A stretch of DNA of 64,000 bases from Dictyostelium discoideum. Its lineage: Eukaryota. Under the pieces are notes generated by a model, which was not told the DNA's origin, did no database searches, and saw only the letters and a program-made list of their open reading frames with translations. The stretch spans positions 3,968,001 through 4,032,000 of the forward strand of contig CM000152.2 in assembly GCA_000004695.1 (NCBI GenBank), read 5' to 3'. The stretch's first letter is position 1, and each line of letters begins with the position of its first letter. The translations under genes and the position numbers were made by a program. Below, piece after piece: positions 632 through 59,471 of this stretch.

Positions 632-682
<51 letters not shown>

Positions 683-1517: not shown

Positions 1518-1548
<31 letters not shown>

Positions 1549-1621
1549 ATGCTACAACAGCAACAACAACAACAACAACAACAACAACTACAACAACAAC
1601 AACAACAGCAACAACAACAGC

Positions 1622-1679
<58 letters not shown>

Positions 1680-1956
1680 GCAACAACAGCAACAACAACA
1701 ACAACAGCAACAACAACAACAACAGCAACAACAACAAAAACCGCCAAGAAAATATCCAAGTGGAAAAGCTAGAACTCAATCAATGACTCCACCTCCATAT
1801 GCACAACAATCACAAGCTGGTTATCCAAATTATAATCAAGGTAATCAACAATTGACTCCACAACAACAAGCACAAATTCAACAACACCAAGAATACCAAC
1901 AACAACAACAACTCCAACAACAACAACAACAACAACAGCAACAACAACTATTAGCT

Positions 1957-1987
<31 letters not shown>

Positions 1988-3821: not shown

Positions 3822-3855
<34 letters not shown>

Positions 3856-5178: not shown

Positions 5179-5434
5179 TATTTTTTCTATTCTTTTCATT
5201 TTTTTTCCAAATCCCTTGTTTAAATAATTATTCTAAAAAATAAAAATAAAAAAAATAAAATAAAAAATAATAAAAAAATATATATATAAAAATTAAGATT
5301 TTAAAAAAAAAAAAAAAAAACAGATTCTTTTTAAGATTTATTACAATGAGAGTTTGAGTTTATTTTTATTTATTATTTATTATTATATTAATAATAAATT
5401 ATAATATTATCTTTTTTTTTTTTTTTTTCTTTTT

Positions 5435-7219: not shown

Positions 7220-7252
<33 letters not shown>

Positions 7253-7530
7253 TTATAAAAAAAAAAAAAAGAAAAAAACTTTACCATTTCTAAATAAAGT
7301 TCAGTTATAATTAAAGGTTTTGTTTCTATTAATTTATTATATATTGTTATATGTAATTCTCTAATTTCTTCAATATTTGAAAATATGTTATTCACTTTAT
7401 CATGTGATATATTTGTATTTTGTAATAATGGTATTTTCAAGTTTTCCAATAAATAATTTATCTTTGATATATATGTCTTTTCAAATCCAATGATTTCATT
7501 TATTACAAATTTTCTAATTTTAATCTTTTT
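5435..7530 (-). CDS. RhoGEF (Dbl-homology domain) protein with a long Ser/Thr/Asn-rich C-terminal tail. Exons (minus strand): >=7530..7285, 7153..6863, 6763..5435. The 5' end is unresolved.
   Basis: DH-domain translation across two exons: RKFVINEIIGFEKTYISKINYLLENLKIPLL..EEIRELHITIYNKLIE..ITELYLEM | LPKFTIYYPYVKNYNNAYKIY..FAQLAESFGYLPSFLILPVQQTPRYLLLFSELAKNT. QQTPRYLLL is the conserved DH helix (QRIPRYxLLL). Donors GTAAAG (7284..7279) and GTAAAT (6862..6857), acceptors ...AACTAG (7157..7154) and ...TTTATAG (6770..6764), read on the minus strand. Exon 3 is in frame with ORF 5435..6631. No in-frame ATG lies upstream of the first DH exon, so a short 5' exon is expected. Confidence 0.6.
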
Positions 7531-7559
7531 AACTAATTTTTATAAAATTTTATTAATTT

Positions 7560-8296
7560 AAGGTAAGTAAATAATTGTTTTTTTTTGGTTGTTTAATAGT
7601 TTTATAAAATTAAAAAAAAAAAAAAAAAAAATATTTACAAAATTCTAAATGTTGTTTCCTAACTAACCAACCTCTGACCCATTTTTGTATAATAATGATA
7701 CTTTTTTCTCTCTAAATATTTATTATAAAAATAAAAAAAATATCTATATTAGTTTAAATTTTTAATAAATTATAATAATGATAATAATTTCTAAAATAGT
7801 TTATATTACTTCTAATTCACCCATTTTTAAGCATTGATATATTTGTTGTTTTTTTTATTGTATAATCTAGAAAAGCTAGAATCGATCTTTTTTTTTTTTT
7901 GAGTTATTGATATTTTGAAATCACACCCAATTGAAATAAATAAATAGATTTTTTATTTTTATTTTTTTGTTTCTATTTTTCTTTTTTTTTTATTTCTTAT
8001 TGATTTTTTTTTTTTTTATTACTATTTTATTTTATTTTATTTTTTTTTTTTTTGATAATTATTTTACATATAAATGACACTAAAAATAAAAATAAAAAAT
8101 TATTATTAGTTGAATGTTTGGAATTAAAACTATTATTTATTGTATGAATTGTATTCTGTGTAATGATATTAAATAACGAAAAAAATAATAATATTATTAA
8201 TAATAATAATAATAATAAAAAATAATAATAATAATAATAATTATAACCATCGTACCACACTCACACCATTAACAGCTGTTTTATTTTATATTTTTA

Positions 8297-8327
<31 letters not shown>

Positions 8328-8582
8328 TTTATTATTTTTTTTTTTTTTTGTTGATATTATTATTTTGAGTTGATTGATATGGCTATAGGTTATTTGAGGC
8401 TATTCTATTTAAATAATTATCTTTCTATATCTCTCTCTCTATATCTTTTCTTTTCTATCTCTCACCAGTTTGAATATTATGTGACATAACCAACCCACAA
8501 TTCTACCTCTTTTTATCTTTTTCTTTTAATATTATTGTGTGGTTTTTTTTTTTTTTTAAATTTTAAAAAAAGAAGGGAAAAA

Positions 8583-8637
<55 letters not shown>

Positions 8638-8887
8638 AGTGAGTGTGAATGTGTGGTAGAAAAAAAAATATCAAAAAAGAGATATAATTGTTTTTTACCT
8701 TTTAGTTTTTTTGTTTTTTGTTTTTTTTATTTTTATTTTTATCTTTATTTTTATTTTAATTTTAATTTTAATTTTAATTTTAATTTTTATCTTTTTTTTT
8801 TTTTTATAAAATTTATTTAAGAATAATATACAAATAATTTTTCTTTGAGAAAACGATAAATGTGACTCTCGAGAATATTAGTTATCC

Positions 8888-8935
<48 letters not shown>

Positions 8936-9203
8936 TTTAAAATTAAAAAAAAGAAAAAAAAATTTTAAAATAAATAAAAAATAAAAAAAAAACTGTGATT
9001 AATTCCTTTATTTTTATTTTATTTTTTTTTGTTTAAATAAATCTGATTAAAAATTTTATTTCAAATGATTAAAAAGAATTTTTTTTATTTTTTTTATTTT
9101 TTTTTATTATAAAAAAAAGAATACTCAAAAGTTTACTATGAAAACAAAAATTAATTAATTTTTTTGTTCCTTTTAATGGGAAAAAAAAAAAGAAGGAAAT
9201 TTG

Positions 9204-25885: not shown

Positions 25886-25958
25886 TGGAGAAGAAGGGTA
25901 TCGATCCCTTTACCTCTCGCATGCTAAGCGAGCGCTCTACCATCTGAGCTACATCCCC
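25886..25958 (-). tRNA. tRNA-Ala (anticodon AGC), 73 nt
   Basis: Minus-strand sequence GGGGATGTAGCTCAGATGGTAGAGCGCTCGCTTAGCATGCGAGAGGTAAAGGGATCGATACCCTTCTTCTCCA. D-loop AGCTCAGATGGTAGAGC; anticodon loop cTTAGCAtg; T-arm GGGATCGATACCC; G3:U70 alanine identity pair; TTTTTATT terminator immediately 3'. Confidence 0.9.
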
Positions 25959-27458: not shown

Positions 27459-27610
27459 ATAATTTAATACCCTAAGGATACAAAATTAAAAAGAAAATAT
27501 TTTTTTTTTATTTTTTTTTATCAAACAATTTTTTTTTTTTTTTATTTTTTTACCAATAAATCTAAAAATAAAAATTAAATTTTATTATGAAAAAAATAAG
27601 ATTATATTGC

Positions 27611-28786
27611 AATAATACCCCCTTTACCATTTTCTTATTTTGAATATTTTCCAGATTTGGAAATTTTTTTATGGCCATTGGATTTTACTACAAATAGTAA
27701 AAATCCCTTTTTTAATTTCAAAAAATTGAAAAATGATCGAGTATAAATTGAAAAAAAAAAAAAATAATCATTTATACAAATGTAAAAAAAAAAATAACAA
27801 ATAGAAAATAAATCTAACTCTAACAATTAAAAATGGTTCAGATAAAGTTGGCTGATAGTATAAAATATAAAAAAAAAAAAAGGGAATTACTTTAAAAAAA
27901 AATATATAACAATTTAAATCTAACTTTAATATTCTTTTTTATAAAGTAATTTTATCAAATAAAAATGGTTTCCATCAATAATGACCTAGATAATATAATA
28001 TATGAATCAATACCAATCAAATGATAGAGAAAGGAAAGATTTATCTATGCACTATATCATAAAGAATCATCATATTAATATTATTTCTAAACAAATAAAA
28101 TGAATCAATTCAAATCAAATGTCAGAGAAAGGAAAGATTTATCTATGCACTATGGCATTTTGAAAAGAAGATGATATCATTTATAAATAAATAATTAGAA
28201 ATCAAAAAACTAAAAATAAATTAAAAACTAAAAATAAATATTAAAAGGTTTAATAAAATATTTTTTTTTTCATTATTGTTTAAAATATTAATTTAATTTA
28301 TTTAAAAAAACTATTTCTTTTTAATTCTATTATTAATAAAAAATTAAAATTATTCAAATGGTTGGTTTTTATGTTTTTCAAAATAAAATTAAAATTGTAA
28401 GTTGGTAATTATTATTTTTAGGTTAAAAATTAAAATTAATTGAAATGGGGGTATTGTTATATATGATGGGTTTAGTTTTTATTTATTTCATAAATTATTT
28501 AATAATTTAATAAAAAATTGTGTGATGTGGTATATCTGAATAAAAACAAATTTGTTTATCAATTAGAAATTTCAATTTTATATAATTTTATCCGTTTTTG
28601 TATAATCTGTCAAAAATGAATATTACAAAATAAATAAAATAACATAACAAAGTATTTTGTTTTATTTGAATTTTGTGGTAACCTTTTAGACTTTGTTATT
28701 TGTAAAAAATTGGTTAATTTACAAATAAGAATAATAAGAATAATTAAAAAAAAAAAAAAAATAATAAAAAAAGTGATTTGATTTAA
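27611..28786 (+). repeat. Non-coding repeat family, copy 1 (about 1.2 kb, full length)
   Basis: Starts ..AATAATACCCCCTTTACCATTTTCTTATTTTGAATAT and ends in an A-run followed by GATTTGATTTAA. Contains an internal about 110-bp tandem duplication with the core AGAGAAAGGAAAGATTTATCTATGCACTAT, present twice. About 85% identical to copy 2 (30002..31200). Confidence 0.6.
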
Positions 28787-29706: not shown

Positions 29707-30001
29707 AATTTTTCAAAATTTAAAAAAAAAAAAAAAAAAAAAAACTTTTTCATTTTAAAATAATAAAAATATAAAATAAATTTTGAATTTTTTTTATTTG
29801 TTATTTTTATTATTATTTCTCAATCAAATAATTAAAAAAAAAAAAAAAATACTCTTTAAATTAATAATTATTAATAAAAAAAGAATTTTTTTTTCCCACA
29901 ATCAAACATGTTTGAACTATAATTTTTTTTTTTAACAATAAATCTTAAAATAAAAATAAAGTTTTAGTGCTTTTCTAAAGAAATAGATATCTTTTTATTG
30001 T

Positions 30002-31150
30002 AATAACACCCCTTTTACCATTTTCTTATTTTGGATATTTCCAGATTTGGAAATTTTCTTTTTGGCTATTGGATTTTACTTAAAATAGTAAATTATTTTT
30101 TTTAATTTCAAATAATTTAAAAAATTGAAAAATGATCGAGTATAAATAGAAAGTTTTTTGAAAAAAAAAAAAATAATAACCATTTATACAAATGTAAAAA
30201 AAAAAATAACAAATAGAAAATAAATGTAACTCTAACAATTAAAAAGGTTTAGATAATAGTTGATTGATAGTTTAAAATATAAAAAAAAGGTAAAGCCATA
30301 AAAAAAAAAAATAATAAATAACAATTTAAATCTAACTTTAATTATATATATATATATTATAGAGTAATTTTATCAAATAAAAATGGAAAAAATTCAATTA
30401 TAATCAAGATAATATAATTTATGAATCAATACCAATCAAATGATAGAGAAAGGAAAGATTTATCTATGCACTATATCATAATGAAAGGTTGATCATCATA
30501 TTAATATTTATTCTTACCTTATAAAATGAATCAATTCAAATCAAATGTCAGAGAAAGGAAAGATTTATCTATGCACTATGGCATTTTGAAAAGAAGATTA
30601 TATCATTTATAAATAAATAATTAGAGATCAAAAAACTAAAAATAAATTAAAAAACTAAAAATAAAATTAAAAGGTTTAATAAAATATGTTTTTTTTTCAT
30701 TATTGTCTAAATTATCAATTAAATTAATTTAAAAAAACCATTTCTTTTTAATTCTATTATTAATAAAAAATTAAAATTATACAAATCGTTTATTTTTATG
30801 TTTTTCAAAATAAGTTGGTCATTTTTTATTATTTTTGGGTTAATTGAAATGGATGTATTGTTATATATTCGATGGGTTTATTTTTTATTATTTCATTACC
30901 ACCATAAATTATTTTAATTATTTAATAATTAATAAAAAATTGTAAAATGTGGTATGTCTAAATAAAAACTAATTTTTTTATCAATTAGAAATTTCAATTT
31001 TATGTATTTTTATCCGTTTTTGTATAAACTGTCAAAAACGAATATTTACAAAATATATAAAATAACAAAACCAAGTATTTTGTCGTTTGAATTTTGTGGT
31101 ACCTTTTTGACTTTGCCTTTTTTAAAAAATTGGTTAATTTACAATAAGAA

Positions 31151-31191
<41 letters not shown>

Positions 31192-31200
31192 TTGATTTAA
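30002..31200 (+). repeat. Non-coding repeat family, copy 2 (about 1.2 kb, direct orientation relative to copy 1)
   Basis: AATAACACCCCTTTTACCATTTTCTTATTTTGGATAT... collinear with copy 1, including both copies of the AGAGAAAGGAAAGATTTATCTATGCACTAT core. Ends ...A(n)GGATTTGATTTAA. Confidence 0.6.
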
Positions 31201-43765: not shown

Positions 43766-44100
43766 TTTGGAGTGAATATAATATAAAAAGTTTTTTTTTT
43801 TTTTTCAGTGGGAAAAAATACTAGAAGTTTTTTTTTTTTTTTTTAAAAATTAAAAAGTGGAATTACTTTGAGTATTTTTTCCCCGCACTGTTTTTTTTTT
43901 TAAAAAAAAATTTAAAAATCCAAAAAATATCGAAAGTCTTTCCATTTTATTTTTGATTTTTTTTTTAATGGCGCAAACAAAGCCAAAAAAATAAAAACAA
44001 ACGATTTGTATAATTTAAATTTTTTATTAATAATAGAATTAATAAAGAAATAGTTTTTTTAAATAAATTAAATTGATATTTTAAACAATAATGAAAGAAA

Positions 44101-44491
44101 ATATATTTTATTAAACCTTTTAATTTTTATTTTTAGTTTTTAATTTATTTTTAGTTTTTGATTTATAATTATTTATTTATAAATGATATCATCTTCTTTT
44201 CAAAATGCCATAGTGCATAGATAAATCTTTCTTTCTCTGACATTTGATTTGAATTGATTCATTTTATTTGTTTAGAAATAATATTTAAATGATCAACCTT
44301 TCTTCATGATATAGTGCATAGATAAATCTTTCCTTTCTCTATCATTCGATTGGTATGTATTCATATATTATATTATCTAGATTATAATTAAATGTAAACC
44401 ATTTTTATTTGATAAAATTACTTTATAAAAAATAATATTAGAGTTAGATTTAAATTGTTATTTATTTATCTATTTATTTATTTGTTTTTTT

Positions 44492-46101: not shown

Positions 46102-46777
46102 CTCCTCAAGACCTAATGGAGGAGGAATAGGAGTAATTTCCTTTGAACGTGAGGTTGTATCTTCATTATTATTATTATTATTAACGACACCATCATTTCT
46201 TGAAAAGGTTTCCGTGGGCAAGCAAACTCGGACTATGGTCTCTAAATTTTCATCATTACTACTTTTCTTTTCTGAGACATCCTCAGGGCAATTATTTACT
46301 AAATTAAAATTATTTTTTGAAAAAAAAAAAAAAAAAAAATTTTTGTTATTTACTAAATTATTATTATTTTTTGAAAAAAAAAAAAAATAAAATAAAAAAA
46401 AAAAAAAAAACCTACTCATTCTTTTCACAAATCGGAAATTAAAAATAAAAAATAAAAATTTAATTATTAAAAATAAAAAATAAAAAAATTTAATTATTAA
46501 AAATAAAAAACAAAAAAAAAAAAAAAAAAAATAGGTGCAAAAAAAAAAAATACCATACAAATTTTGAGTTGAATATTTTTTTAAAATAAAAAAAAAAATT
46601 AATATTTTTTAAAATAATCATTTATTATTTTCTTTAAATAATAAAATATATATTTTATATTTCAATAAATTATTTTTTTATTTGGTCAAAAAAAAAAAAA
46701 AAAAAATTGACAAATTTAATATTCAACTGTTCTAATGATATATAATTTCTAGTAATTTTTGATTTATAATCATCAAA

Positions 46778-46850
46778 GGGGATGTAGCTCAGATGGTAGA
46801 GCGCTCGCTTAGCATGCGAGAGGTAAAGGGATCGATACCCTTCTTCTCCA
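46778..46850 (+). tRNA. tRNA-Ala (anticodon AGC), 73 nt; sequence identical to the copy at 25886..25958 but on the opposite strand
   Basis: GGGGATGTAGCTCAGATGGTAGAGCGCTCGCTTAGCATGCGAGAGGTAAAGGGATCGATACCCTTCTTCTCCA followed by TTTTTATT. Same AATCATCAAA 5' flank as the first copy. Confidence 0.9.
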
Positions 46851-46878
46851 TTTTTATTCCAATTAAATTTAGATCAAG

Positions 46879-46890
46879 TGTTCAATTTCT
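46879..46890 (+). promoter_or_regulatory. Candidate ex-B box 29 nt downstream of tRNA-Ala. It overlaps the target-site duplication of the TRE3 insertion.
   Basis: GTGTTCAATTTC, same spacing as the ex-B of the first tRNA-Ala. Additional GTTCAA-containing units (GAATTGTTCAAAATCT, twice) resume after the retroelement at 50131..50200. Confidence 0.45.
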
Positions 46891-46891
46891 T

Positions 46892-49800
46892 CACCTTTTC
46901 AAATAAATAAACATAAGAAAAGATGGATATTATCACCTGGTACTGCAAATGACCATGAAGCAATCAATATTATCAATCATTTAATAACTAATCACAATAA
47001 CACATCAATCAATCAATTTACAAATTGGTCAAAAGTAAAATCAAAAATTATTAAAACTCTAAAAAACTATCAATATAACAAAGACAAACAAACTCAACGT
47101 GCAAAACAAATACTATTAGAAAAAGCAGCAAAATTCAAACATCTTGAAGAACAATGCATCGCTGAATACAATATTATATGTAACAAAAACAAATTACATC
47201 AAAACCACACAAACATATTAAAAAAACATATAAATGGAGAAATACCTAGCAAGTATCTATCAGCAATACTAAACAAAAGATCAAAAGATGCAAAAATTGA
47301 ATCAATCCAATGTGGTAACATCATTACATCCGACCCCGACCAAATTGAAAATGTGTTTGTTGAATTCTACACAAATCTATATAGCTTACAAATATGTTGT
47401 CCAATTACTCACCAGCTCATGCTAAACACATGGCCAATTATAAAAAATGAATATTGGAATGGTTTAGACTCACCATTTATACAAGATGAAGTTGAAGCTG
47501 CAATTAAAACCTGTAACCCCAACAAATCACCCGGTCCAGATGGCGTTACAAATGCATTCTACATTAATCATTTAAACCAAGTTAAACCAATTCTCACTAC
47601 ATTATTCAACGATATACTAGAAAATCCTCACCACATCACAACAGAATTCACCGAAGGTCTTATACACACAATATACAAGAAAGGCAACCCCTTACTCATA
47701 TCAAATCGTCGTCCCATTACACTTCTTAACACTGATTACAAGATCCTCTCAAAAGTAATCAATGCACGTCTTCTGAGAATACTTCCTTTCATCATCAACA
47801 ACAACCAAACTGGTTTCGTACCCCACAGATTCATCATAGACAACATCATCAACATCAACGAATTAATAAACTACCTCAAATCTAAAAACCTCCCTGGTAT
47901 CATCACACTATTTGACTTCTTTAAAGCATTTGATTCTATCTCTCACAATAGCATTAAAAGAACATTAATTCATATTGGAATACCAATAAAATTAATAAAT
48001 TTAATCCACAAGCTATTATCTGACTCACAAGCAAAAATTTCAATTAATGGTAAAACGACCAGAAAATTCGATATTAAAAGAGGTGTAAAACAAGGTGACC
48101 CAATCTCAGCCACTTTATTTGTAATTGTAATTGAAATATTAGCAAGAACAATAAATGCAGACAATTCAATAATTGGATTACCAGTTTCACCCAATCCACA
48201 AATTAATATCAAATTTACCCAATTTGCAGACGACTCTACAACATACAACATCAACTACGAACAACAACAACAATCAATCAAACATTTCGATAATTTCTGC
48301 GCTTCAACATCATCATCTTTAAATTTTGACAAAAGTGCAATAATAGAAATCAACCCCCACAAAATCGCTGATAAACACATAATAAACAACATTCCACAAT
48401 CAAAAAGAATTCCAATAACCAAAAAAGATCAATCAGAAAGAGTTCTTGGCTATTTCTTTAATCATAATGGTTTACATAGGAAATTACCCGAAACAATGAA
48501 AACACTGATTAAATCATTAGTGCTATGGAAAACTAGTGGTACAACATTAAAAACAAAAACAACCATCATAAACACCTACTCACTATCACCAATAACATAT
48601 TTATCATACCTTGAAGAATTTACAAAAGATGAAGAAATTCAAATTAATAAATTAATCTCATGGTTTATGAATTCTCCCGCAAATTCTGAATCACCAACTC
48701 TCAATACCAATTCCATTGAAAACAACACATCAACCATCCATTCACGTGCAAAAATACCTTTGATGTGTTATGATAGATCATTAAAACCATTAAAAGAAGG
48801 TGGTTGGGGTATGTGGAATATACAATTACGACAAGTTGCTCAAAAGATTTGGATATACAACAGATTTTTACTAATGCATAAATCTGCAAACAATTCAATA
48901 TACATGATAAGTTGGATGGATCAAATCATCAACAAATCAATCTCTTCTCCATACCTTATAAAAATCAAAAAAGAATGGGAAAACTATGCAACTCAAATTG
49001 GACATCTAAAAGATAAAGTTCAAATCCTACAACCAATATTAACAAAAAACCAACCCTCTCAAACATTAAACACAAATAATATTTCACTACCACCAACACT
49101 CAAAGAAATCTACTCGACAATACTAAACAATCACCAATGCAAATCAAAAGACTATATTGGCAAGAAATATTCAGATCTACTTCTTACTTCGCACCAACAA
49201 TCAATACAACTATTATGGAAATACACATACGACCAACTTTTTGTCAAAATTCAAAAATTAAAAGATCCAAAAGGCCGAGATACAATGCAAAGATTCCATG
49301 CTAGATGTCTTCCGATTAATCATCTACACAACAAAGTTTGCCCCATTTGCAACAATGAAATGAATAATGATCCCTATGGTCATTTGTTTTTCAATTGTCA
49401 GCACACAATCAACTTCATTAACCACGACAAATTAAAATATTTTATATATAAAAATTGCAATGGAAACAAAAACTGGTCACTAACAAAAAACCAAACAACA
49501 AAATTATACACACTCATCTATAAACCACAAACAAACAACAAAGCATTTAAACCAGATCCAACTATCAATATTAATTTTCATTTTGCAGAAAACGCACAAT
49601 ATAAAAAATACAGGTTCAACTGGAATTATATAAACACAAATCTTGATCTAGTCAGAACACATGCATATTGGAACATAATCTCATTAGTTATTCACCAAAT
49701 ATGGATATGGTTATGCAAATCATTATTTGATATCAATATAACTCAATCAATTGACAATTGGAACAACCAAATAAACAACACAACACTAGATTATGATATA

Positions 49801-50130
49801 TTAAAATCAAAATGGCACAAGCTAATAAGATTGGAATATTCAAGAACATTATCAAACTTTAACCAATACTCAATTAAAAACAACCTCACAAAAACTCAAA
49901 AAGAAACCCAATGGTCCGAAACCATCAAAAAATTTAAAAAAGAATGGAGCATAAACACAAATGAACCAATTCCAACAATTACACCACCAATTAATTATTA
50001 ATTACCTAATCTAAAATAACATACCATTTTATATTCACAAAAACTAAAAAACCTAAAATAAATAAATAAAAATAACATACTAATTGTATACTATAATAGT
50101 TTATTTATATCAAAAAAAAAAAAAAAAAAA
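46892..50130 (+). mobile_element. 5'-truncated TRE3-type (tRNA-gene-targeted, L1-clade non-LTR) retrotransposon inserted about 40 bp downstream of tRNA-Ala, same orientation as the tRNA. It ends in a 23-nt poly(A) and is flanked by a 14-15 bp target-site duplication.
   Basis: TSD AGTGTTCAATT(T)CTT at 46877..46891 and 50131..50144. The internal ORF (46905..50001) carries the tail of the AP-endonuclease (RWILSPGTANDHEAI, matching L1 EN SDHSAI), the linker region (..IENVFVEFYTNLY) and the reverse transcriptase (KSPGPDGVTNAFY.., RPITLLNTDYKILSKVINARL, LFDFFKAFDSISH, KRGVKQGDPISATLF, QFADDSTTY). C-terminal Cys/His motif CPICNNEMNNDPYGHLFFNCQHT. Poly(A) at 50108..50130. Confidence 0.75.
46905..50001 (+). 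CDS. ORF2 fragment (C-terminal end of the endonuclease, reverse transcriptase, Cys-rich tail) of the TRE3-type retrotransposon
   Basis: See the mobile_element entry. The frame is continuous from 46905 to the stop at 49999-50001. Confidence 0.75.
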
Positions 50131-50654
50131 AGTGTTCAATTCTTGAATTGTTCAAAATCTACACCGCTTTTAGGTAAAAAAAAAAAAGAATTGTTCAAAA
50201 TCTGCAATTGTAATAAAGCCCAGTAAAATAATAGATAATTATTTTTTTTTTTTTTTTAGAGTGATTTGTTCTTGAGTGGTTTGGTTTATATGGTTAATTA
50301 ACTAATAATAATAATAAATAATTTATTTAATTTTAAATATCAACATATTTAAAAAAGGATATTTAAAAAAAATAATAATAATAACAATACTATATTTTAA
50401 AATAAAAATTCATAAATCAACCATTAATTTTTTTTTTTTTCCTTTAATGTATGGCACTGATTAATCAATATTCAAAAAAAAAAAAAAAAAATCTATCCTT
50501 GACTCCTCTTCATTCCATCAATTCATTTGAAAAAAAAAGTTTAAACTTATAAAATTTATTACAAAATTAAAATTGATTAAATTGAGTAAACTAGTGTCGT
50601 ATCCATCCTGTAACTTTAATTTAAATTTTAATAAAATATTATTTGATTTTATTT

Positions 50655-51913
50655 TACGATTGGGTATGATGAAGTGGCTAATTATAAAAGGTATTATTTA
50701 AAAATAAATGTTAGTTTTGTGAGTAATAATTTAGTAAACAAAAAATTATAATAATCCTGATTTTGATGGCGGTTTATTATCAGTGGTAATATTTGATGAT
50801 GATGACGATGATTCTTGACAAACTTTGTTAACTGATAATAATGGATTAATTGAATATGCTTTTTGAATATATCCAAATGTGTGTGATGATCCGACTTCGA
50901 TACTGTTTTTCCAATTTGGTAGTGTGAATGTATTTGATAATTTTTGAACTTCCCAAATACTTTGAATATCATTTAATTCGAATGTATATGATTGAATCAT
51001 TGATTGGCCAATATTTGTAATTATTGTTTCTACTTGAATATAATCTTGATTATTTTCTCTCCATGAACTTGTAATAGTTTGTGTTACATTTGCATTGCAC
51101 GATGAAGTTGGTGTGGTTGGTGTTGGTGTTGGTAATTCATCACATGTTGATGTTTCGTCAGTGAGTGGTGTTGTTTGATTTGATTGTTGAATATATCCAA
51201 AACTATGAGACGATCCTGATGAAATACTACCAACCCAATTTGGAAGTTGATAATCATTACTACTTAATAATGTTTCAACTTCCCAAATGCTAATGATTTA
51301 ATTTGAATGAAAATGAACGAATTGTTGTTGGTCCAATGTTGGTAGTACTGCTATCTTTGAATGCTTCATATTTTAAAAAGAATTGATCGGCTCTGTAAGT
51401 TCTATTGAATTGATTTGACCATTGAATAAATGAATTTTGATATTCAAGTTCTCTTTTTCTACAATCTTTACCATATCTACCAAATTTACAACCACAGATA
51501 TCACGGCCATAATGGCGATGATGGTGACTTTGATTATGAAGTGATTTAGCATTTTCTTCATTATTTTCATTATCACCATTGCTATCATTTGATATATCGC
51601 CACCACTACCATCAATATCACTACCTAATTAATCACTATCATTTTCACTATTATTATTAATATTAAAACCTTTGCATCTATTTGCTTTATCATCTTGAAT
51701 ATCATCTAATTCTTTATTAGGTTGATGTTCATGGTCATGATCATGATTATTTTTAATTATTACTTTAACAGTAATTTCATCACCTTGATCTTTTACTTTT
51801 GTATTTACTTTGATATCATAATCATCATTATCATCATGTTTACATAATGAAAATGTAAACAATGAACTAAATAATAAAAATATTATTAAAACAAATAATA
51901 TACTAACTTTCAT
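50655..51913 (-). pseudogene. Decayed copy A of the CBM-containing cysteine protease (signal peptide, His-rich region, partial propeptide, one CBM repeat, fused to the last exon). It has a nonsense mutation and two deletions and lacks the catalytic-domain exons.
   Basis: The N-terminus is near-identical to copies B and C: [51 protein letters not shown]... Then TCA>TAA at 51618..51620 (gatagtgatTAAttaggt in copy A vs gatagtgatTCAttaggt in copies B and C). About 250 bp is missing near 51300-51370 relative to copy B. The CBM region joins directly to the terminal-exon/3'-flank sequence at about 50750. Confidence 0.65.
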
Positions 51914-52360
51914 TTTTTATAACAGCAATTGTTGTCAATTTAAAAATATTTAAAATGAAAACATTTAAATAAAAATTTTTTACATACTTTTATAGTCGTT
52001 AGGTTTTCACAAAATAAAAGAATCTCTTTCTTTTTTTTTACACAAAAAAAAAAAGATTTTGGCTATTTGGTGATAATGGCAATTCAAAAATCAAAAAATT
52101 CCCGATAATAAAAAAAATATCGACCAATTTTTTTTTTTAATTTTCCAAATAAAATTTTATTCAATAATGTTATTAATGATTATCTAATTTTATACTATAA
52201 TAAAAAGAAAAATAAATATTAATAATAAAAAAAAAAAAAAAAAAAAAAGATGTTTGTTAATTGTTAAAAATTTATTATAAAATTAAAATTGATTAAATGA
52301 ATTTAACTAGCGTTGTATCATCTTGATACTTTAATTTAAAATTTAAAAAAAAATTTGATT

Positions 52361-54888
52361 TTAAATTACGACTGGGTATGATGATGCAGTGGCTAATTAT
52401 AAAAGGTATTATTTTAAAAATAAATGTTAGATTGTGAGTAATAAATTAGTAAACAAAAAATTATAATACTTACCAATTCCACATTTATCGCCAGTATTTC
52501 TTCTCATTCTAAAGTATCCTTTTTCACCTGTGATATTTATCATAATTTTGGAAAATAAAAAGAAAAATTAAAAAACAATATATAAAATTAGTATAGTAGT
52601 AAAAATGTGTTTTAAAAATTTTTTTTATCTTTTTTTTTTCTTACCCCATCCGTCGCCCCATGAATTCTAAAAGAATGAAAATAAATAAAAAAAGTGTTAG
52701 TAAAAGATTAATGAAAAAATTTAAATAGGACAGAGAATGATATATTTTACTTTTATAATCCAAAAGTCAACCCCATTTTCAATACCATATCCAACTACAA
52801 CAACAGCATGAGTGGTTCTATATTTATCACAACTGTCACTGTTGTAAATGCCACTTGAATAATACATAAATTCTCTTGTCGATGCATCATAAGCAACTGA
52901 AACAGGACCCACTGAAGCAACTGCATTTGCTAAGTCCTCTTCATCATGTTGTTTAATCATAACATAGTTTGAAATTCTTGATTGTGCATCTCCACTATTA
53001 TAACGACATAGTCCAACTCTGCCTTCATAAGGATAAGTACTTTGGAGATTAATTCCACCATTTTCTTTTATATATCTAAAACAATTATGCATCCTTTTTT
53101 TAAAAAAAATAAATTGTTGTTAATATCCATTACTACATTAATTTTAAATACAATAGTAGTAGTTTAATTAAAGTTTATTAAAATCAAAAATAACATACCA
53201 TCCTCCACTACATTCACCATTTCCATAATTTCTGGTGCAATCAACTAAATTTTGTTCAGAAAGGTTTAACATTCTATTATTCTTTCTATAATAATGGGCT
53301 TCTAGTGCACCAACTGTACTAAATGCATAACAACTTCCTATAATAATTATTTTTAAATAAAATTAGAACTTTATGGTAATGGAATATAATTAATTATATA
53401 TTTAAACTTACCGCAACTGCCTTGATTTTTAACTTTGCTCACCATACCCCAGGTTCTCCAATCAATTGAGATTGGTCTCGACCATTTTAATAATCTTGAT
53501 TTTGATGGTTCATCAGTGGTAATATTTGATGATGATGATGACGATGATTCTTGACAAACTTTGTTAACTGATAATAATGGATTAATTGAATATGCTTTTT
53601 GAATATATCCAAATGTGTGTGATGATCCGACTTCGATGCTGTTTTTCCAATTTGGTAGTGTGAATGTATTATTTGATAATGTTTGAATTTCCCAAATACT
53701 TTGAATATCATTTAATTCGAATGTATATGATTGAATTATTGATTGACCAATATTTGTAATTATTGTTTCTACTTGAATATAATCTTGATTATTTTCTCTC
53801 CAAGAACTTGTAATAGTTTGTGTTACATTTGCATTGCATGATGAAGTTGGTGTGGTTGGTGTTGGTGTTGGTAATTCATCACATGTTGATGTTTCGTCAG
53901 TGAGTGGTGTTGTTTGATTTGATTGTTGAATATATCCAAAACTATGAGACGATCCTGATGAAATATTGCCAACCCAATTTGGAAGTTGATAGCTATTACT
54001 TGATAATGTTTCAACTTCCCAAATGCTAATGATATTATTTAATTTGAATGAAAATGAACGAATTGTTGTTGGTCCATTGTTGGTAATTATTACTTGTACT
54101 TGAGTAAAGTCTTGATTACCATCATTCCATGAGTTTATAATAGTTTGAGTAATATTAACTGAGCATGGACTATTTGATGGTGTAGTTTCATTTAAATTAA
54201 ATTCATATAATTTACTTGTATATATATTTAAAAATTCGTCATGAGTCATATCAGAGAATTGAGTTAGACCAAGTTCCATAGTTGAATTTTGATTTTCTCT
54301 CTTGTATTGTTCGATGAATCTACTGCTATCTTTGAATGCTTCATATTTTAATAAGAATTGATCGGCTCTGTAAGTTCTATTGAATTGATTTGACCATTGA
54401 ATAAATGAATTTTGATATTCAAGTTCTCTTTTTCTACAATCTTTACCATATCTACCAAATATACAACCACAGATATCACGGCCATCATGGTGATGATGGT
54501 GACCATGATTATGAAGTCTTTTAGCATTTTCTTCATTATTTTCATTATCATTATTGCTATCATTTGATATATCGCCACCACTACCATCAATATCACTACC
54601 TAATGAATCACTATCATTTTCACTATTATTATTATTAATATTAAAACCTTTGCATCTATTTGCTTTATCATCTTGAATATCATCTAATTCTTTGTGAGGT
54701 TGATGTTCATGGTCATGATTATGATTATTTTTAATTATTACTTTAACAGTAATTTCATCACCTTGATCTTTTACTTTTGTATTTACTTTGATATCGTAAT
54801 CATCATTATCATGTTTACATAATGAAAATGTAAACAATGAACTAAATAATAAAAATATTATTAAAACAAATAATATACTAACTTTCAT
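52361..54888 (-). CDS. Papain-family (C1A) cysteine protease precursor with an unusual layout: signal peptide, His-rich stretch, I29 propeptide, 2x about 95-aa CBM49-like carbohydrate-binding repeats, then the catalytic domain. Copy B, six exons (minus): 54888..53412, 53337..53199, 53093..52751, 52666..52645, 52527..52474, 52392..52361. About 688 aa.
   Basis: I29: [68 protein letters not shown]-like repeats: [80 protein letters not shown] and [80 protein letters not shown]. Catalytic domain across exons: [22 protein letters not shown]|[30 protein letters not shown]|[24 protein letters not shown].......[20 protein letters not shown]|NSWGDGWG|[17 protein letters not shown]|[10 protein letters not shown]. 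All donors GTAAGT/GTATGT/GTAAAA/GTAAGA and all acceptors ..AG were read on the minus strand, with phases consistent. Confidence 0.75.
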
Positions 54889-55262
54889 TTTTTATAACAG
54901 CAATTGTTGGCAATTTAAAAATATTTAAAATGAAAACATTTAAATATAAATATTTTACATACTTTTATAGTCGTTAGGTTTTCACAAAAAAAAAAAAAAA
55001 AAAAAGATTTTCACTGTTTGGTGTGATCAAAAAAAACGTAAACTGCAATGCAAAGATCAAAATTTCTAATAATAAAAAATCGCAACCGGTTATTTTTATT
55101 TTTCTATATAATATTTTATGTAATAATTGATTGGCTAATATTATAAAAAGAAAAAAAAATAATTAATTTCTTTTATTTTATTTAAAAAATTTCTTTTTCT
55201 TTTAGTATTTATTTAGAAAAAAATAATAAAAAAAAAATAAAAAAAAACAAAGATGTTTGATA

Positions 55263-55460
55263 ATTTTTAAAAATTTATTACAAAATTAAAATTGATTAAA
55301 TTAAATTAACTAGTGTTGTATTGATCTGTTCTTAGTTTAAATTTAATAAAAATTTTGATTTGATTTTAAGCTACGACTGGGTATGAGGTGCAGTGGCTAA
55401 TTAAAGAGATATTATTTTAAAAATAAATGTTAGTTTTGTGAGTAATAAATTAGTAAAAAA
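55263..55460 (-). repeat. Orphan duplicate of the cysteine-protease terminal exon plus 3' flank, lying between copies B and C
   Basis: aaatttattacaaaattaaaattgattaaattaaattaactagtgttgtattgatc...aagctacgactgggtatgaggtgcagtggctaattaaagag parallels 55627..55830 and 52265..52470, with substitutions (GATGATGCAG>GAGGTGCAG) that break the reading frame. Confidence 0.55.
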
Positions 55461-55738
55461 AAAAAAAAAACTGCAACACAAAGGTCAAAAATTTTCTAAT
55501 AATAAAAAAAAAATCACATTCATTTTTTTTTTTTTATTTTCATAAACGATATTTTATGTTATAAATGATTATCTAATTTTATACTAAAAGAAAAAAAAAA
55601 AAAAAAAAAAAAAAAAAAGATGTTTGATGATAATTGTTAAAAATTTATTATAAAATTAAAATTGATTAAATTAATTTAACTAATGTTGTATCGATCTTGT
55701 TACTTTAATTTAAAATTTAATAAAAAATTGATTTGATT

Positions 55739-58272
55739 TTAAGCTACGACTGGGTATGATGATGCAGTGGCTAATTATAAGAGGTATTGTTTAGAAATAA
55801 ATGTTAGTTTTGTGAGTAATAATTTAGTAAGAAAAAATTAAATTAATACTTACCAATTCCACATCTATCGCCAATATTTCTTCTCATTCTAAAGTATCCG
55901 TTTTCACCTGTGATATTTATCATAATTTTGGAAAATAAAAAAAAATTAAAAACAATATATAAAATTAGTATGGTAGTAAAAATGTTTTTTAAAATTTTTT
56001 TATCTTTTTTTTTTTCTTACCCCATTTGGCGCCCCATGAATTCTAAAAGGATGAAAAATAAATAAAAAAAAGTGTTAGTAAAAGATTAATGATAAAATTT
56101 AAATAATAGGACAGAGAATGATATACTTTACTTTTATAATCCAATAGTCAACCCCATTTTCATTATCATATCCAACTACAACAACAGCATGAGTGGTTCT
56201 ATATTTATTACAATTGTCACTGTAGTAAATACCTCTTGAATAATACATAAATTCTCTTGTCGATGCATCATAAGCAACTGAAACAGGACCCACTGAAGCA
56301 ACTGTATCTGCTAAGTCCTCTTCATCATGTTGTTTAATCATAACAAATTTTGAAATTCTTGATTGTGCATCTCCACTATTATAACGACATTGTCCAAATT
56401 TGCCTTCATAAGGATAAGTACTTTCCTGATTAATTCCACCATTTTCTTGTATATAGCTATAACAATTATGCATCCTTTTTTTTAAAAAAATAAATTGTTG
56501 TTAATATCCATTACTACATTAATTTTAAATACAATAGTAGTAGTTTAATTAAAGTTTATTAAAATTAAAAATAACATACCATCCTCCACTACATCCACCA
56601 TTTCTATATTTATTACTAGCGGTGCAATCAACTAAATTTTGTTCAGAAAGGTCTAACATTCTATTATTCTTTCTATAATAATGGGATTCTAATGCACCAA
56701 CTGTACTAAATGCATAACAACTTCCTATAATAATTATTTTTAAATAAAATTAGAACTTTATGGTAATGGAATATAATTAATTATATATTTAAACTTACCG
56801 CAACTGCCTTGATTTTTAACTTTGCTCACCATACCCCAGGTTCTCCAATCAATTGAGATTGGTCTCGACCATTTTAATAATCTTGATTTTGATGGTTCAT
56901 CAGTGGTAATATTTGATGATGATGATGACGATGATTCTTGACAAACTTTGTTAACTGATAATAATGGATTAATTGAATATGCTTTTTGAATATATCCAAA
57001 TGTGTGTGATGATCCGACTTCGATACTGTTTTTCCAATTTGGTAGTGTGAATGTATTATTTGATAATGTTTGAATTTCCCAAATACTTTGAATATCATTT
57101 AATTCGAATGTATATGATTGAATCATTGATTGGCCAATATTTGTAATTATTGTTTCTACTTGAATATAATCTTGGTTATTTTCTCTCCATGAACTTGTAA
57201 TAGTTTGTGTTACATTTGCATTGCACGATGAAGTTGGTGTGGTTGGTGTTGGTGTTGGTAATTCATCACATGTTGATGTTTCGTCAGTGAGTGGTGTTGT
57301 TTGATTTGATTGTTGAATATATCCAAAACTATGAGACGATCCTGATGAAATACTGCCAACCCAATTTGGAAGTTGATAGCTATTACTTGATAATGTTTCA
57401 ACTTCCCAAATGCTAATGATATTATTTAATTTGAATGAAAATGAACGAATTGTTGTTGGTCCAATGTTGGTAATTACTACTTGTACTTGAATAAAGTCTT
57501 GATTACCATCATTCCATGAGTTTACAATAGTTTGAGTAATATTAACTGAGCATGAACTGTTTGATGGTGTAGTTTCATTTAAATTAAATTCATATAATTT
57601 GCTTGTATATACATTTAAAAATTCGTCATGAGTCATATCAGAGAATTGAGTTAGACCAAGTTCCATGGTTGAATTTTGATTTTCTCTCTTGTATTGTTCG
57701 ATGAATCTACTGCTATCTTTGAATGCTTCATATTTTAATAAGAATTGATCGGCTCTGTAAGTTCTATTGAATTGATTTGACCATTGAATAAATGAATTTT
57801 GGTATTCAAGTTCTCTTTTTCTACAATCTTTACCATATCTACCAAATATACAACCACAGATATCACGGCCATCATGGTGATGATGGTGAACATGATTATG
57901 AAGTCTTTTAGCATTTTCTTCATTATTTTCATTATCACCATTGCTATCATTTGATATATCGCCACCACTACCAATCTCACTATCTAATGAATCACTACCA
58001 TCCACATTATTATTATTAATATTAAAACCTTTGCATCTATTTGCTTTATCATCTTGAATATCATCTAATTCTTTATGAGGTTGATGTTCATGGTCATGAT
58101 CATGATTATTTTTAATTATTACTTTAACAGTAATTTCATCACCTTGATCTTTTACTTTTGTATTTACTTTGATATCATAATCGTCATTATCATCATGTTT
58201 ACATAATGAAAATGTAAACAATGAACTAAATAATAAAAATATTATTAAAACAAATAATATACCAACTTTCAT
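55739..58272 (-). CDS. Papain-family cysteine protease precursor with 2x CBM49-like repeats, copy C (tandem paralog about 3.39 kb from copy B, about 95% identical). Exons (minus): 58272..56799, 56724..56580, 56474..56132, 56042..56021, 55907..55854, 55770..55739.
   Basis: Same exon/intron structure as copy B at an offset of +3387 (exon 1) or +3381 (later exons). Exon 2 is 6 nt longer (..[20 protein letters not shown] vs ..[18 protein letters not shown]). Exon 4 encodes NSWGAKWG (NSWGDGWG in B). Catalytic Cys (GSCG|SCYAFS) and His ([11 protein letters not shown]) are intact. The C-terminus is ..[10 protein letters not shown]. Confidence 0.75.
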
Positions 58273-59471
58273 TTTTTTTTTTTTTTTTTTTCTAACTATT
58301 GATAATTATTATAAAAGAAAAAAAAAAAAAACTGTGCCTTATAAAATACAGTTAAAAAAAAAAAAAAAATTATCTAAAATTATTTAACTCGTGCAAATGG
58401 TTTGTGATATCTTAAAAGATAAAAAATTTTCTATGTCACCCCCACCAATTCTCTTCATTTTACAAGTCATTTGCATGAGTTAAATTATTTTAATTTTTTT
58501 TTTTTTTCCAGTATCAAAGGGTAAAAATATGATTGGTTGTTTAAATTTAAATTTTATTGCAAACATTTGCAAAAAAAAAATAAACCTGGAAATCTTTGCA
58601 AAAAAAAATCAGTTGATTTTTTTTTAACCAAAAAAACATCATTTTACAACACTTTTTTTTTTTTTCCTAAAAATAACGCACATCAAAAAATATCAAACAG
58701 ACACTAATCCCTAAATGAAATTAATTAATTGAAATTTAATTTAATTTTCATTTTTTTTTTTTTTTTTTTATTTAAAAATTTAATTTCTGAATATCCCAAA
58801 AATAGATTATATACAAAATAAAAAAAAATGAATTTTTTTTTTTTTTTTTTTAATCAAAAATAAAATAAATAATCAAGAATTAATTATTTTTTTTTATATT
58901 TTTTAAATCAAATATACACAAATGATACAAAATAATAATAAAAGTGAAAGTAATCGAAATAAAAAGAATTACAAAAAATGAATTATAAAAAAAAAAAATG
59001 GAAAATAAAAAAAAAAAAAAAAAGATAATATTTTTTTTTTTTTTTATTTTTTTTCTTGAGTCAGATTTGAATAGATTTTTAATTATTTATCAAAAAACGA
59101 ATCCAGAAAAAAAAATCTGTGAATTGGTTCGTTAAAATCCAAATAGGTTTAATATCTAATAAACGATTATATTTTCAACTTCTGTTTTAAAATATTAAAA
59201 AATAAAATAAAAAATAAAATAAAATAAAAAAAAAAAAAAAAAAAATAAAATAAAATAAAAATTAAAATGAGGAATTAGTTCGTTTTTTTTTTTTCATTTT
59301 TCTTTTTTTTTTTTTATTTTTTTTTTTTTTATTTTTTTTGTAATTTATTTTTTAAACTTCAATTTATTTTTTATTTTATTTTTCATTTTTCCATTTTATT
59401 TATTCACATATAAAAATTTAAATATATTTATATACATATATTTAATATTAATATTAAATAATACTATCTAA

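What the first reader, a model, noticed from the sequence alone, without database searches (positions are those of the whole stretch)
46778..50144. TRE3-type retrotransposon fragment with an intact target-site duplication, inserted into the ex-B box region downstream of tRNA-Ala
A 3.2 kb stretch on the + strand encodes the tail of an AP-endonuclease, a complete L1-clade reverse transcriptase and a Cys/His tail. It ends in a 23-nt poly(A). It is bracketed by a direct repeat AGTGTTCAATT(T)CTT at 46877..46891 and 50131..50144. The insertion point is about 40 bp 3' of a tRNA gene and in the same orientation. That is the signature of the Dictyostelium TRE3 family, which targets the region downstream of tRNA genes. 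The 5' truncation inside the EN domain means this copy is dead, yet the TSD is still nearly perfect (a single T indel), so the insertion is recent. The TSD overlaps the tRNA's candidate external B box, and two more GTTCAA-containing units lie just beyond the element. The insertion therefore split an array of ex-B-like motifs.
Basis: partly seen in the sequence, partly recalled or inferred. Interest (0 to 1): 0.5.

Follow-up and report, generated by a model that had tools for sequence, protein, structure and literature searches.

The report
Dead TRE3-B retrotransposon copy beside tRNA-Ala

Summary
The main call holds. Window 46883-50131 is a 5'-truncated, poly(A)-tailed non-LTR retrotransposon. 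It lies 32-41 bp downstream of tRNA-Ala(AGC) (46778-50 strand +) in the same orientation. It is 99% identical in nucleotides to a 5.3 kb Dictyostelium discoideum family. Full-length copies of that family also sit 30-45 bp downstream of tRNA genes, which is TRE3 behaviour. By element length the subfamily is most likely TRE3-B. An orthologous empty site in another assembly proves the target-site duplication.

Four details need correcting.
1. The copy keeps no endonuclease residues. It starts about 7 codons after the EN domain ends.
2. The TSD is an exact 11-12 bp, (A)AGTGTTCAATT. The "extra T" is element sequence: the full-length element reads CAATTTCTTCACC at the break. The 5' junction is therefore a microhomology join, not a mutated 15-mer.
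3. The A run is 20 nt, not 23.
4. The "two more GTTCAA units" are not an ex-B array. They are the perfect 16-bp TSD of a second, 27-bp insertion, the 3' tip of another TRE family.

Twenty-nine coding differences separate this copy from the active copies, and 19 are synonymous. Most are therefore lineage differences rather than decay.

This is known biology and of low interest.

The parts
46778..46850 (+). tRNA-Ala(AGC) gene, the target of the insertions. It is identical to the second tRNA-Ala at 25886-25958 (-).
   Evidence: ARAGORN; Rfam RF00005, 58.1 bits; sequences read.
46851..46855 (+). T5 run immediately after the tRNA, the presumed Pol III terminator.
   Evidence: Sequence read. Its function is inferred from general Pol III knowledge.
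46877..46887 (+). Left copy of the true target-site duplication, AGTGTTCAATT (optionally with the A at 46876). It carries 8 of the 9 nt of the tRNA's external B box. The tRNA-proximal box now reads GTTCAATTT (46880-46888) and has lost the conserved final C.
   Evidence: The ex-B consensus GTTCRAnYC, about 41 bp downstream of tRNA genes, comes from PMC3159450.
46883..46887 (+). Microhomology CAATT, shared by the target and the element at the 5' junction. Homology to full-length copies starts at 46883. Unambiguous element sequence starts at the T at 46888.
   Evidence: Blastn start at query position 33, which is window 46883. The full-length element reads ...tcaacaaCAATTTCTTCACC.... The empty site reads AGTGTTCGATTCTTGAAATG.
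46888..50111 (+). Body of the 5'-truncated TRE3-type (probably TRE3-B) element. It corresponds to about nt 2075-5304 of the 5.3 kb full-length element. It is 99.0% identical to four identical full-length copies (32 mismatches, no gaps).
46879..50001 (+). Open reading frame remnant of ORF2 (residues about 238-1275 of 1275). ORF1 and the whole EN domain are missing. The first codons read through the TSD.
47677..48372 (+). Reverse transcriptase domain (Pfam RVT_1).
   Evidence: residues 267-498 of the translation from 46879, E=3e-30.
49339..49404 (+). Cys/His zinc-knuckle motif CPICNNEMNNDPYGHLFFNCQH.
   Evidence: Translation; alignment.
50112..50130 (+). Poly(A) tail. The A run is 20 nt (50112-50131). 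The last 1-2 A cannot be told apart from the TSD.
50131..50141 (+). Right copy of the TSD, AGTGTTCAATT. With the next base it forms an intact ex-B box GTTCAATTC (50134-50142), now displaced 3.25 kb from the tRNA.
50145..50160 (+). Left TSD (GAATTGTTCAAAATCT) of a second, minute retroelement insertion.
   Evidence: the repeat finder family D8.
50161..50187 (+). Second insertion: the 15-nt 3' tip ACACCGCTTTTAGGT plus A12. The source is another TRE family (the P0022 family, probably TRE3-C).
   Evidence: The same ...CCGCTTTTAGGT(A)n end is found at three other places. One is at the ex-B box of a tRNA-Thr in L002, with a 14-bp TSD. One is in L004. One is at the 3' end of a P0022-family element in L011.
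50188..50203 (+). Right TSD (GAATTGTTCAAAATCT) of the second insertion. It matches the left copy 16/16.

Best explanation
A TRE3-type, L1-like non-LTR retrotransposon of Dictyostelium discoideum, most likely subfamily TRE3-B, inserted by target-primed reverse transcription at the external B box of a tRNA-Ala(AGC) gene. It was dead on arrival.

Inferred steps:
1. The element's endonuclease nicked the bottom strand about 26 bp downstream of the tRNA, opposite ...GATCA|AGTG.... It was presumably positioned by the Pol III/TFIIIC complex on the tRNA gene.
2. The poly(A) RNA was reverse-transcribed for only about 3.2 kb.
3. The incomplete cDNA joined the upstream target end through the microhomology CAATT(T)CTT, which the target ex-B box and the element share at ORF2 codon about 237.
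4. Fill-in of the 11-12 bp stagger produced the TSD (A)AGTGTTCAATT.

What is shown: family identity, downstream and same-orientation geometry, the TSD, the empty site, the truncation point and the microhomology. What is inferred: the targeting factor and the order of nicks.

The copy lacks its 5' UTR and promoter, ORF1 and the whole EN domain, so it cannot move on its own. The tRNA-proximal ex-B box now reads GTTCAATTT, and the intact copy GTTCAATTC lies 3.25 kb away.

Three bp further downstream, a second TRE family left a 27-bp 3' tip with its own 16-bp TSD.
For: Family identity:
- The ORF is 99% identical (1031/1039) to D. discoideum pol AAD43057.1, residues 237-1275.
- It is 99.0% identical in nucleotides, without gaps, to four mutually identical 5.3 kb copies.
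- Those full-length copies have ORF1 plus ORF2 in the order EN-RT-ZF.

TRE3 geometry:
- As a control, the P0037 family (30% identical) lies about 46 bp upstream of a tRNA, head to head, which is TRE5 geometry.
- The published TRE3 range is 40-150 bp downstream in the same orientation (PMC5911963). For TRE3-B it is 34-188 bp (PMC5006619).

Subfamily:
- The 40%-identical P0012 family measures 5228 bp, against the published TRE3-A consensus of 5229 bp.
- This family measures 5298-5304 bp, closest to TRE3-B at 5279 bp.

TSD and microhomology:
- The ACTFIW orthologue has the uninterrupted sequence ...TTTAGATCAAGTGTTCGATTCTTGAAATGTTC....
- The full-length element reads CAATTTCTTCACC at the break.

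Age: 19 synonymous against 10 nonsynonymous differences, where neutral decay predicts about 80% nonsynonymous (P=1e-7).
Against: - No sequence explicitly labelled TRE3-B could be obtained. The subfamily rests on element length, which is 20-25 bp off the published consensus, and on elimination.
- The insertion point lies at the short end of the published TRE3 window.
- How TRE3 is targeted has never been shown experimentally. Only TRE5-A has been studied (PMC5006619).
- The alternative of a 14-bp TSD plus a later T insertion cannot be formally excluded. It needs an extra mutation that happens to recreate 9 nt of element sequence.
- The only empty site comes from a divergent lineage (neighbouring gene 81% amino-acid identity), so it does not date the insertion within D. 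discoideum.
Confidence: 0.9

Rival explanations
1. One reading: the TSD is 14-15 bp (AGTGTTCAATT(T)CTT), a single T was inserted in the left copy after integration, and the element starts at CACC inside the EN domain.
For: The two 14/15-nt strings exist at the stated coordinates. The three bases CTT do follow the 11-mer on both sides.
Against: - Homology to full-length copies begins at 46883. The element itself reads CAATTTCTTCACC there, so the extra T and the CTT are explained without any mutation.
- The empty site and the right copy lack the T.
- The other copies of this family have 10-13 bp TSDs.
- The EN domain ends at residue 231, and the copy starts at about residue 238.
Confidence: 0.06
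2. The element belongs to a subfamily other than TRE3-B, for example TRE3-A (Tdd-3) or an unnamed variant.
For: No labelled reference was available. The measured full length of 5298-5304 bp is not exactly 5279 bp.
Against: - A different family (P0012) matches the TRE3-A consensus length to within 1 bp: 5228 against 5229.
- TRE3-C is 4734 bp, and TRE3-D has no full-length copies, whereas this family has several intact identical copies.
- Relative abundance fits TRE3-A being more numerous than TRE3-B.
Confidence: 0.12
3. The flanking repeat is not a TSD. It reflects a pre-existing array of ex-B-like GTTCAA motifs downstream of the tRNA, into which the element fell.
For: Four GTTCAA-containing motifs occur within the region. 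GTTCAANNTC is mildly over-represented in the window (8 observed against 3.0 expected).
Against: - The orthologous ACTFIW locus has one copy of AGTGTTCGATTCTT followed directly by GAAATGTTC.
- The two downstream units flank a 15-nt retroelement tip plus A12 with 16/16 identity. The same tip with its own TSD recurs at another tRNA.
- GTTCAAAAT does not fit the ex-B consensus GTTCRAnYC.
Confidence: 0.02

Closest known systems
TRE3-B (formerly RED), a D. discoideum tRNA-gene-targeted non-LTR retrotransposon
   Same: - Same species.
- About 5.3 kb full length, with two ORFs and ORF2 in the order EN-RT-ZF.
- Poly(A) tail.
[quoted passage not shown]
- Multiple intact copies.
- The window copy is 99% identical to this family.
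   Different: The window copy is only the 3' 3.2 kb, with no ORF1 or EN. The subfamily label is inferred from length (5298-5304 against the published 5279 bp), not from a labelled reference.
TRE3-A (Tdd-3)
   Same: Same architecture and same downstream, same-orientation targeting. About 40% ORF2 identity.
   Different: - It is a different family: 5228 bp, with a 5' end AAAAACCGTACCGCG and a 3' end CCAATATT(A)n.
- In the few copies seen here it inserts further out, 75 bp from the tRNA end in L007 and roughly 35 bp beyond the ex-B box, whereas the family studied here lands on the ex-B box.
TRE5-A (DRE)
   Same: L1-clade non-LTR element with an EN-RT-ZF ORF2 that targets tRNA genes.
   Different: It inserts about 48 bp upstream, head to head with the tRNA. 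This was verified here for the P0037 family. It is only about 30% identical to the window ORF.
5'-truncated mammalian L1 insertions with microhomology at the 5' junction
   Same: Dead-on-arrival truncation, a poly(A) tail, a 10-16 bp TSD, and a few shared bases between target and element at the 5' join.
   Different: L1 picks sites mainly through the sequence preference of its EN (TTTT/AA). TRE3 picks a position relative to a Pol III gene. The comparison with L1 rests on general knowledge, not on a test run here.
Skipper-2 (LTR retrotransposon that inserts downstream of tRNA genes)
   Same: Same landing zone downstream of dictyostelid tRNA genes (PMC5006619).
   Different: It is an LTR/integrase element. 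The window shows no LTRs or integrase here.

Membership tests
TRE3 (tRNA-gene-targeted retroelements, 3' type) | Non-LTR element with ORF1 plus ORF2, ORF2 in the order APE-RT-zinc finger, and an oligo(A) tail | tested here: met
   Full-length relatives have an ORF1 of about 400 aa and an ORF2 of 1275 aa, with Exo_endo_phos at 8-231, RVT_1 at 502-732 and a CCHC motif. The window copy retains RT, ZF, the 3' UTR and A20.
TRE3 (tRNA-gene-targeted retroelements, 3' type) | Located tens of bp downstream of a tRNA gene in the same transcriptional orientation (published: 40-150 bp overall; TRE3-B 34-188 bp) | tested here: met
   The window junction is 32-41 bp after the tRNA-Ala 3' end, on the same strand. 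Relatives lie 45, 32 and 30 bp after tRNA genes.
TRE3 (tRNA-gene-targeted retroelements, 3' type) | ORF2 groups with TRE3 rather than TRE5 families | tested here: met
   The ORF is 99% identical to a family with TRE3 geometry, 40% to TRE3-A and 30% to the P0037/P0042 families. P0037 shows TRE5 geometry.
TRE3 (tRNA-gene-targeted retroelements, 3' type) | Variable-length target-site duplication from TPRT | tested here: met
   An exact 11-12 bp TSD is confirmed by the empty orthologous site. Relatives have 10-13 bp TSDs.
TRE3-B subfamily | Consensus length 5279 bp with several intact copies (Spaller 2016, Table 1) | tested here: inconclusive
   Full-length copies measure 5298-5304 bp without the A tail. 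That is nearest to TRE3-B. TRE3-A is excluded because another family measures 5228 bp against its 5229 bp consensus.
TRE3-B subfamily | High nucleotide identity to the deposited TRE3-B reference sequence | not testable with these tools
   No labelled TRE3-B sequence was reachable. Searches for accession numbers and for Glockner 2001 failed. The Spaller supplement holds no readable alignment.
TRE5 | Insertion about 50 bp upstream of a tRNA gene, with the element's 5' end facing the tRNA's 5' end | tested here: not met
   The element is downstream of the tRNA and co-oriented with it. There is no other tRNA within the window near its ends.
External B box (ex-B) of D. discoideum tRNA genes | GTTCRAnYC motif some 30-40 bp downstream of the tRNA coding region | tested here: met
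   The ancestral and right copy, GTTCAATTC, fits. Orthologues and paralogues carry GTTC[A/G]ATTC at +30 to +37, and 8 of the 13 tRNA genes sampled have such a box. The consensus comes from PMC3159450. The tRNA-proximal copy now reads GTTCAATTT. The units at 50150 and 50193 (GTTCAAAAT) do not fit.

The most novel reading that the evidence does not exclude
TRE3 subfamilies may use different molecular rulers. In the few copies seen here, the TRE3-B-like family lands on or just before the ex-B box, 30-45 bp after the tRNA end and about 50-62 bp from the internal B box. TRE3-A lands roughly 35 bp beyond the ex-B box.

Because the TRE3-B TSD spans the ex-B box, each insertion moves an intact TFIIIC-type box to the element's 3' end. 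That could seed the next insertion and explain TRE-TRE tandems and recurrent hits. This tRNA-Ala was hit independently in three lineages.

The sample is very small (n=3-4 per family), and the idea may already be in the older TRE3 literature that I could not read.
Probability: 0.2. Interest if true: 0.3.

Novelty: already known. Interest (0 to 1): 0.1.

Why it matters
It matters little beyond annotation. The locus is a textbook example of how TRE3 elements use the zone downstream of tRNA genes as a safe harbour in a gene-dense genome.

Three practical points follow:
- The truncation and TSD boundaries are now defined precisely.
- The tRNA-proximal ex-B box was altered at its last conserved base, while an intact copy was moved 3.25 kb away. 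This could be used to test whether ex-B boxes affect tRNA expression.
- A public gene model (ACTFIT_011244) that starts at an ATG inside the tRNA gene is an annotation artefact of this dead element.

Tried and rejected
- Fetching AX4 loci through the exact proteins P0001 and P0123 failed, because no gene positions are on record. I used ACTFIT-assembly copies instead.
- I could not obtain a labelled TRE3-A/B/C/D reference. Full-text searches for AF134169-71, AAD43057 and Q9Y1H5 found nothing. A search for the subfamily names found nothing. Glockner 2001 is not held. The Spaller 2016 supplement has no readable RT alignment.
- I considered whether P0123 (DDB_G0293152, 1041 aa, 'partial') shares the same truncation point. 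Its N-terminus looks like diverged and frame-shifted element sequence upstream of the break, so it is not a second identical truncation.
- I looked for other TRE coding fragments in the window, including the compositionally odd 1-5 kb region. There are none.
- Rfam finds only the two tRNAs.
- I considered that the second, 27-bp insertion came from a TRE5. I rejected this because both clear examples sit downstream of a tRNA and co-oriented with it. The subfamily of its source, the P0022 family of about 4.7 kb (probably TRE3-C), remains unverified.
Full report
**Source of the window.** The window is Dictyostelium discoideum DNA, about 22% G+C. Window 36776-60013 is collinear at 99.86% identity with contig CM142509.1 of assembly GCA_054883475.1, locus-tag prefix ACTFIT. 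The gene just upstream of the finding is DDB_G0281075, which lies on AX4 chromosome 3.

**Checking the observation.** ARAGORN and Rfam both find tRNA-Ala(AGC) at 46778-46850 on the + strand. A T5 run follows it directly. A single frame is open from 46879 to the TAA at 49999-50001, which is 1040 codons. Pfam finds only RVT_1, at nt 47677-48372. A CX2CX11HX4C motif lies at 49339-49404. The element ends in TATATC followed by 20 A (50112-50131), not 23.

**What the element is.**
- The ORF is 99% identical (1031/1039) to residues 237-1275 of D. discoideum 'pol' AAD43057.1/Q9Y1H5, which is 1275 aa long.
- Four full-length copies were fetched from the ACTFIT assembly (L002-L005). They are 100% identical to one another over about 5.3 kb. 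Each has an ORF1 of about 400 aa and a 1275-aa ORF2 in the -1 frame.
- In ORF2 the Pfam Exo_endo_phos domain spans residues 8-231 and RVT_1 spans 502-732.
- The window copy aligns to these copies from window 46883 to the poly(A), with 32 mismatches and no gaps (99.0%).
- The copy therefore begins about 7 codons after the end of the EN domain.

**Family behaviour.**
- In L002, L003 and L005 the full-length copies lie 45, 32 and 30 bp downstream of a tRNA gene, in the same orientation, with TSDs of 12, 13 and 10 bp.
- ARAGORN finds no intact tRNA in L004, although tRNA-like fragments are present.
- This geometry is the published definition of TRE3: downstream, same orientation, 40-150 bp (PMC5911963; PMC5006619).
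- As a control, the P0037 family is only about 30% identical to the window ORF. It lies about 46 bp upstream of a tRNA-Ala with its 5' end facing the tRNA's 5' end, which is TRE5-A geometry (PMC3159450).

**Subfamily.**
- Table 1 of Spaller et al. 2016 gives consensus lengths of 5229 bp for TRE3-A, 5279 bp for TRE3-B, 4734 bp for TRE3-C and 1559 bp (partial) for TRE3-D.
- A second TRE3-type family, P0012, is 40% identical. It measures 5228 bp in L007, so it is TRE3-A.
- The family of the window copy measures 5298-5304 bp and has several intact copies. By elimination it is most likely TRE3-B.
- I could not obtain a labelled reference sequence, so this assignment stays an inference.

**The target-site duplication and the 5' junction.**
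- At the break, the full-length element reads ...TCAACAACAATTTCTTCACCTTTTC....
- The left junction in the window reads ...GATCAAGTGTTCAATTTCTTCACC.... The right junction reads (A)nAGTGTTCAATTCTTGAATTG.
The 'extra T' needs no mutation.
- The orthologous locus in assembly GCA_054859355.1 (ACTFIW, L008) was reached through the neighbouring gene. It has the uninterrupted sequence ...TTTAGATCAAGTGTTCGATTCTTGAAATGTTC... after the same tRNA-Ala. This is an empty site. It proves a real TSD and shows that the ancestral state lacks the T.
- The true TSD is (A)AGTGTTCAATT, 11-12 bp, which fits the 10-13 bp seen in the other copies.
- The 5' join used the microhomology CAATT, extended imperfectly by (T)CTT. 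This is the usual outcome for 5'-truncated L1-type insertions (general knowledge).

**The ex-B box.**
- Siol et al. 2011 give the ex-B core as GTTCRAnYC, found about 41 bp downstream of 66% of tRNA genes.
These include the paralogous tRNA-Ala at 25886-25958 (GTTCAATTC) and both orthologues (GTTCGATTC).
- The right TSD copy plus one base is an intact box, GTTCAATTC at 50134-50142.
- The tRNA-proximal copy became GTTCAATTT at 46880-46888, because its last base now comes from the element.
- The insertion did hit the ex-B box. This is simply where this family lands: L002's TSD also overlaps an ex-B box, and L003's insertion lies just in front of one.

**The 'two more GTTCAA units'.**
- GAATTGTTCAAAATCT occurs at 50145-50160 and again at 50188-50203, matching 16/16. 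The two copies flank ACACCGCTTTTAGGT plus A12.
- The same tip, (A)ACACCGCTTTTAGGT(A)17, sits at the ex-B box of a tRNA-Thr in L002, flanked by a 14-bp TSD GGTTCAATTCTTTA. It also occurs in L004.
- ...CCGCTTTTAGGT(A)18 is the 3' end of a P0022-family element in L011.
- That family is 33-34% identical to TRE3-A and TRE3-B and appears to be about 4.7 kb long (the 5' boundary in L011 could not be defined), so it is probably TRE3-C.
- The two units are therefore the TSD of a second, 27-bp insertion, not an ex-B array. GTTCAAAAT does not fit the ex-B consensus.

**Recurrent targeting.**
- In ACTFIW the orthologous GAAATGTTC site carries a different fragment of about 120 bp with a poly(A) tail and its own TSD.
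- In GCA_054859205.1 (ACTFIY, L009) a different TRE3-like zinc-finger-tail fragment sits immediately after AGTGTTCGATTCCTT(A). It is 45% identical to TRE3-A.
- The 30-bp zone downstream of this tRNA-Ala has therefore been hit independently in three lineages.

**Age.**
- Of the 29 coding differences from the identical full-length copies, 19 are synonymous and 10 nonsynonymous. Neutral decay would give about 80% nonsynonymous (binomial P=1.3e-7).
- Most differences therefore arose in active lineages before insertion. The copy has decayed little, and the ORF is still open over 1040 codons.
- The insertion is shared with the ACTFIT assembly and absent from the divergent ACTFIW and ACTFIY lineages. 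Their neighbouring gene is 78-81% identical in amino acids, so this gives only a loose upper bound on age.

**Mechanism.**
- Inferred steps: TPRT with a bottom-strand nick opposite GATCA|AGTG; priming on the poly(A) RNA; an early end of reverse transcription after 3.2 kb; a microhomology join; and fill-in of the 11-12 bp stagger.
- Positioning by TFIIIC/TFIIIB is assumed by analogy with TRE5-A. It has not been shown for TRE3.

**Verdict.** This is a correctly recognised but ordinary TRE3 insertion, most likely TRE3-B, in a sequenced model genome. Four details need correcting: the EN tail, the TSD, the poly(A) length and the 'array'. It is already known biology and of low interest.

Noticed in passing
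window 50145-50203: A second, 27-bp retroelement insertion (ACACCGCTTTTAGGT plus A12) with a perfect 16-bp TSD lies 3 bp beyond the TRE3-B TSD. The same 3' tip recurs at a tRNA-Thr ex-B box in L002 (2501-2561) and at the 3' end of a P0022-family element (L011, about 5560-5597), which is probably TRE3-C.
   Followed up: yes
L001 10001-13209 (equivalent to window about 46776-50001): The public gene model ACTFIT_011244 (P0124, 1043 aa) for this dead element appears to start at the ATG inside the tRNA-Ala gene (GGGGATGTAG). It seems to use a predicted intron of about 77 bp to reach the ORF2 remnant. This is an annotation artefact.
   Followed up: partly
L002-L005, positions about 3840-9143 in each: Four full-length 5.3 kb copies of this family in assembly GCA_054883475.1 are 100% identical to each other. 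This suggests very recent or ongoing retrotransposition. L005 carries a tandem second copy starting about 9198.
   Followed up: partly
L008 5230-5470 and 5982-8006; L009 8500-9500: The orthologous tRNA-Ala in two divergent lineages was hit independently. ACTFIW has a poly(A) fragment of about 120 bp with TSD GAAATGTTC downstream of the tRNA. It also has an LTR-type gag/protease gene between the tRNA and the neighbouring gene. ACTFIY has a different TRE3-like ZF-tail fragment plus further poly(A) fragments right after the ex-B box.
   Followed up: partly
L007 1980-2056; L010 2762-2831; L003 9175-9225, compared with L002, L003, L005 and the window: In this small sample TRE3-A copies insert roughly 35 bp beyond the ex-B box (75 bp after the tRNA end in L007). 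The TRE3-B-like family inserts on or just before the ex-B box (30-45 bp after the tRNA end). This may reflect subfamily-specific spacing.
   Followed up: partly
window 27540-28786, 29923-31200 and 43985-44479 (the last inverted): A repeat of up to about 1.3 kb occurs three times at 84-93% identity. The first two copies contain no ORF of 100 aa or more. Its identity is unknown.
   Followed up: no
window 50745-58277: Tandemly repeated CBM49 / papain-type cysteine protease genes form units of about 2.7 kb at about 95% identity. The first copy is partial.
   Followed up: no
window 1-2000: This stretch has unusually high G+C for the window (0.29-0.36) and a strong negative GC skew with positive AT skew, similar to the TRE body. 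It shows no tblastn similarity to any TRE protein.
   Followed up: partly
window 25886-25958 (-) and flanks: A second, identical tRNA-Ala(AGC) has an intact ex-B box GTTCAATTC 31 nt downstream. No similarity to TRE proteins was detected anywhere else in the window. It would serve as a natural control locus for the effect of the insertion.
   Followed up: partly
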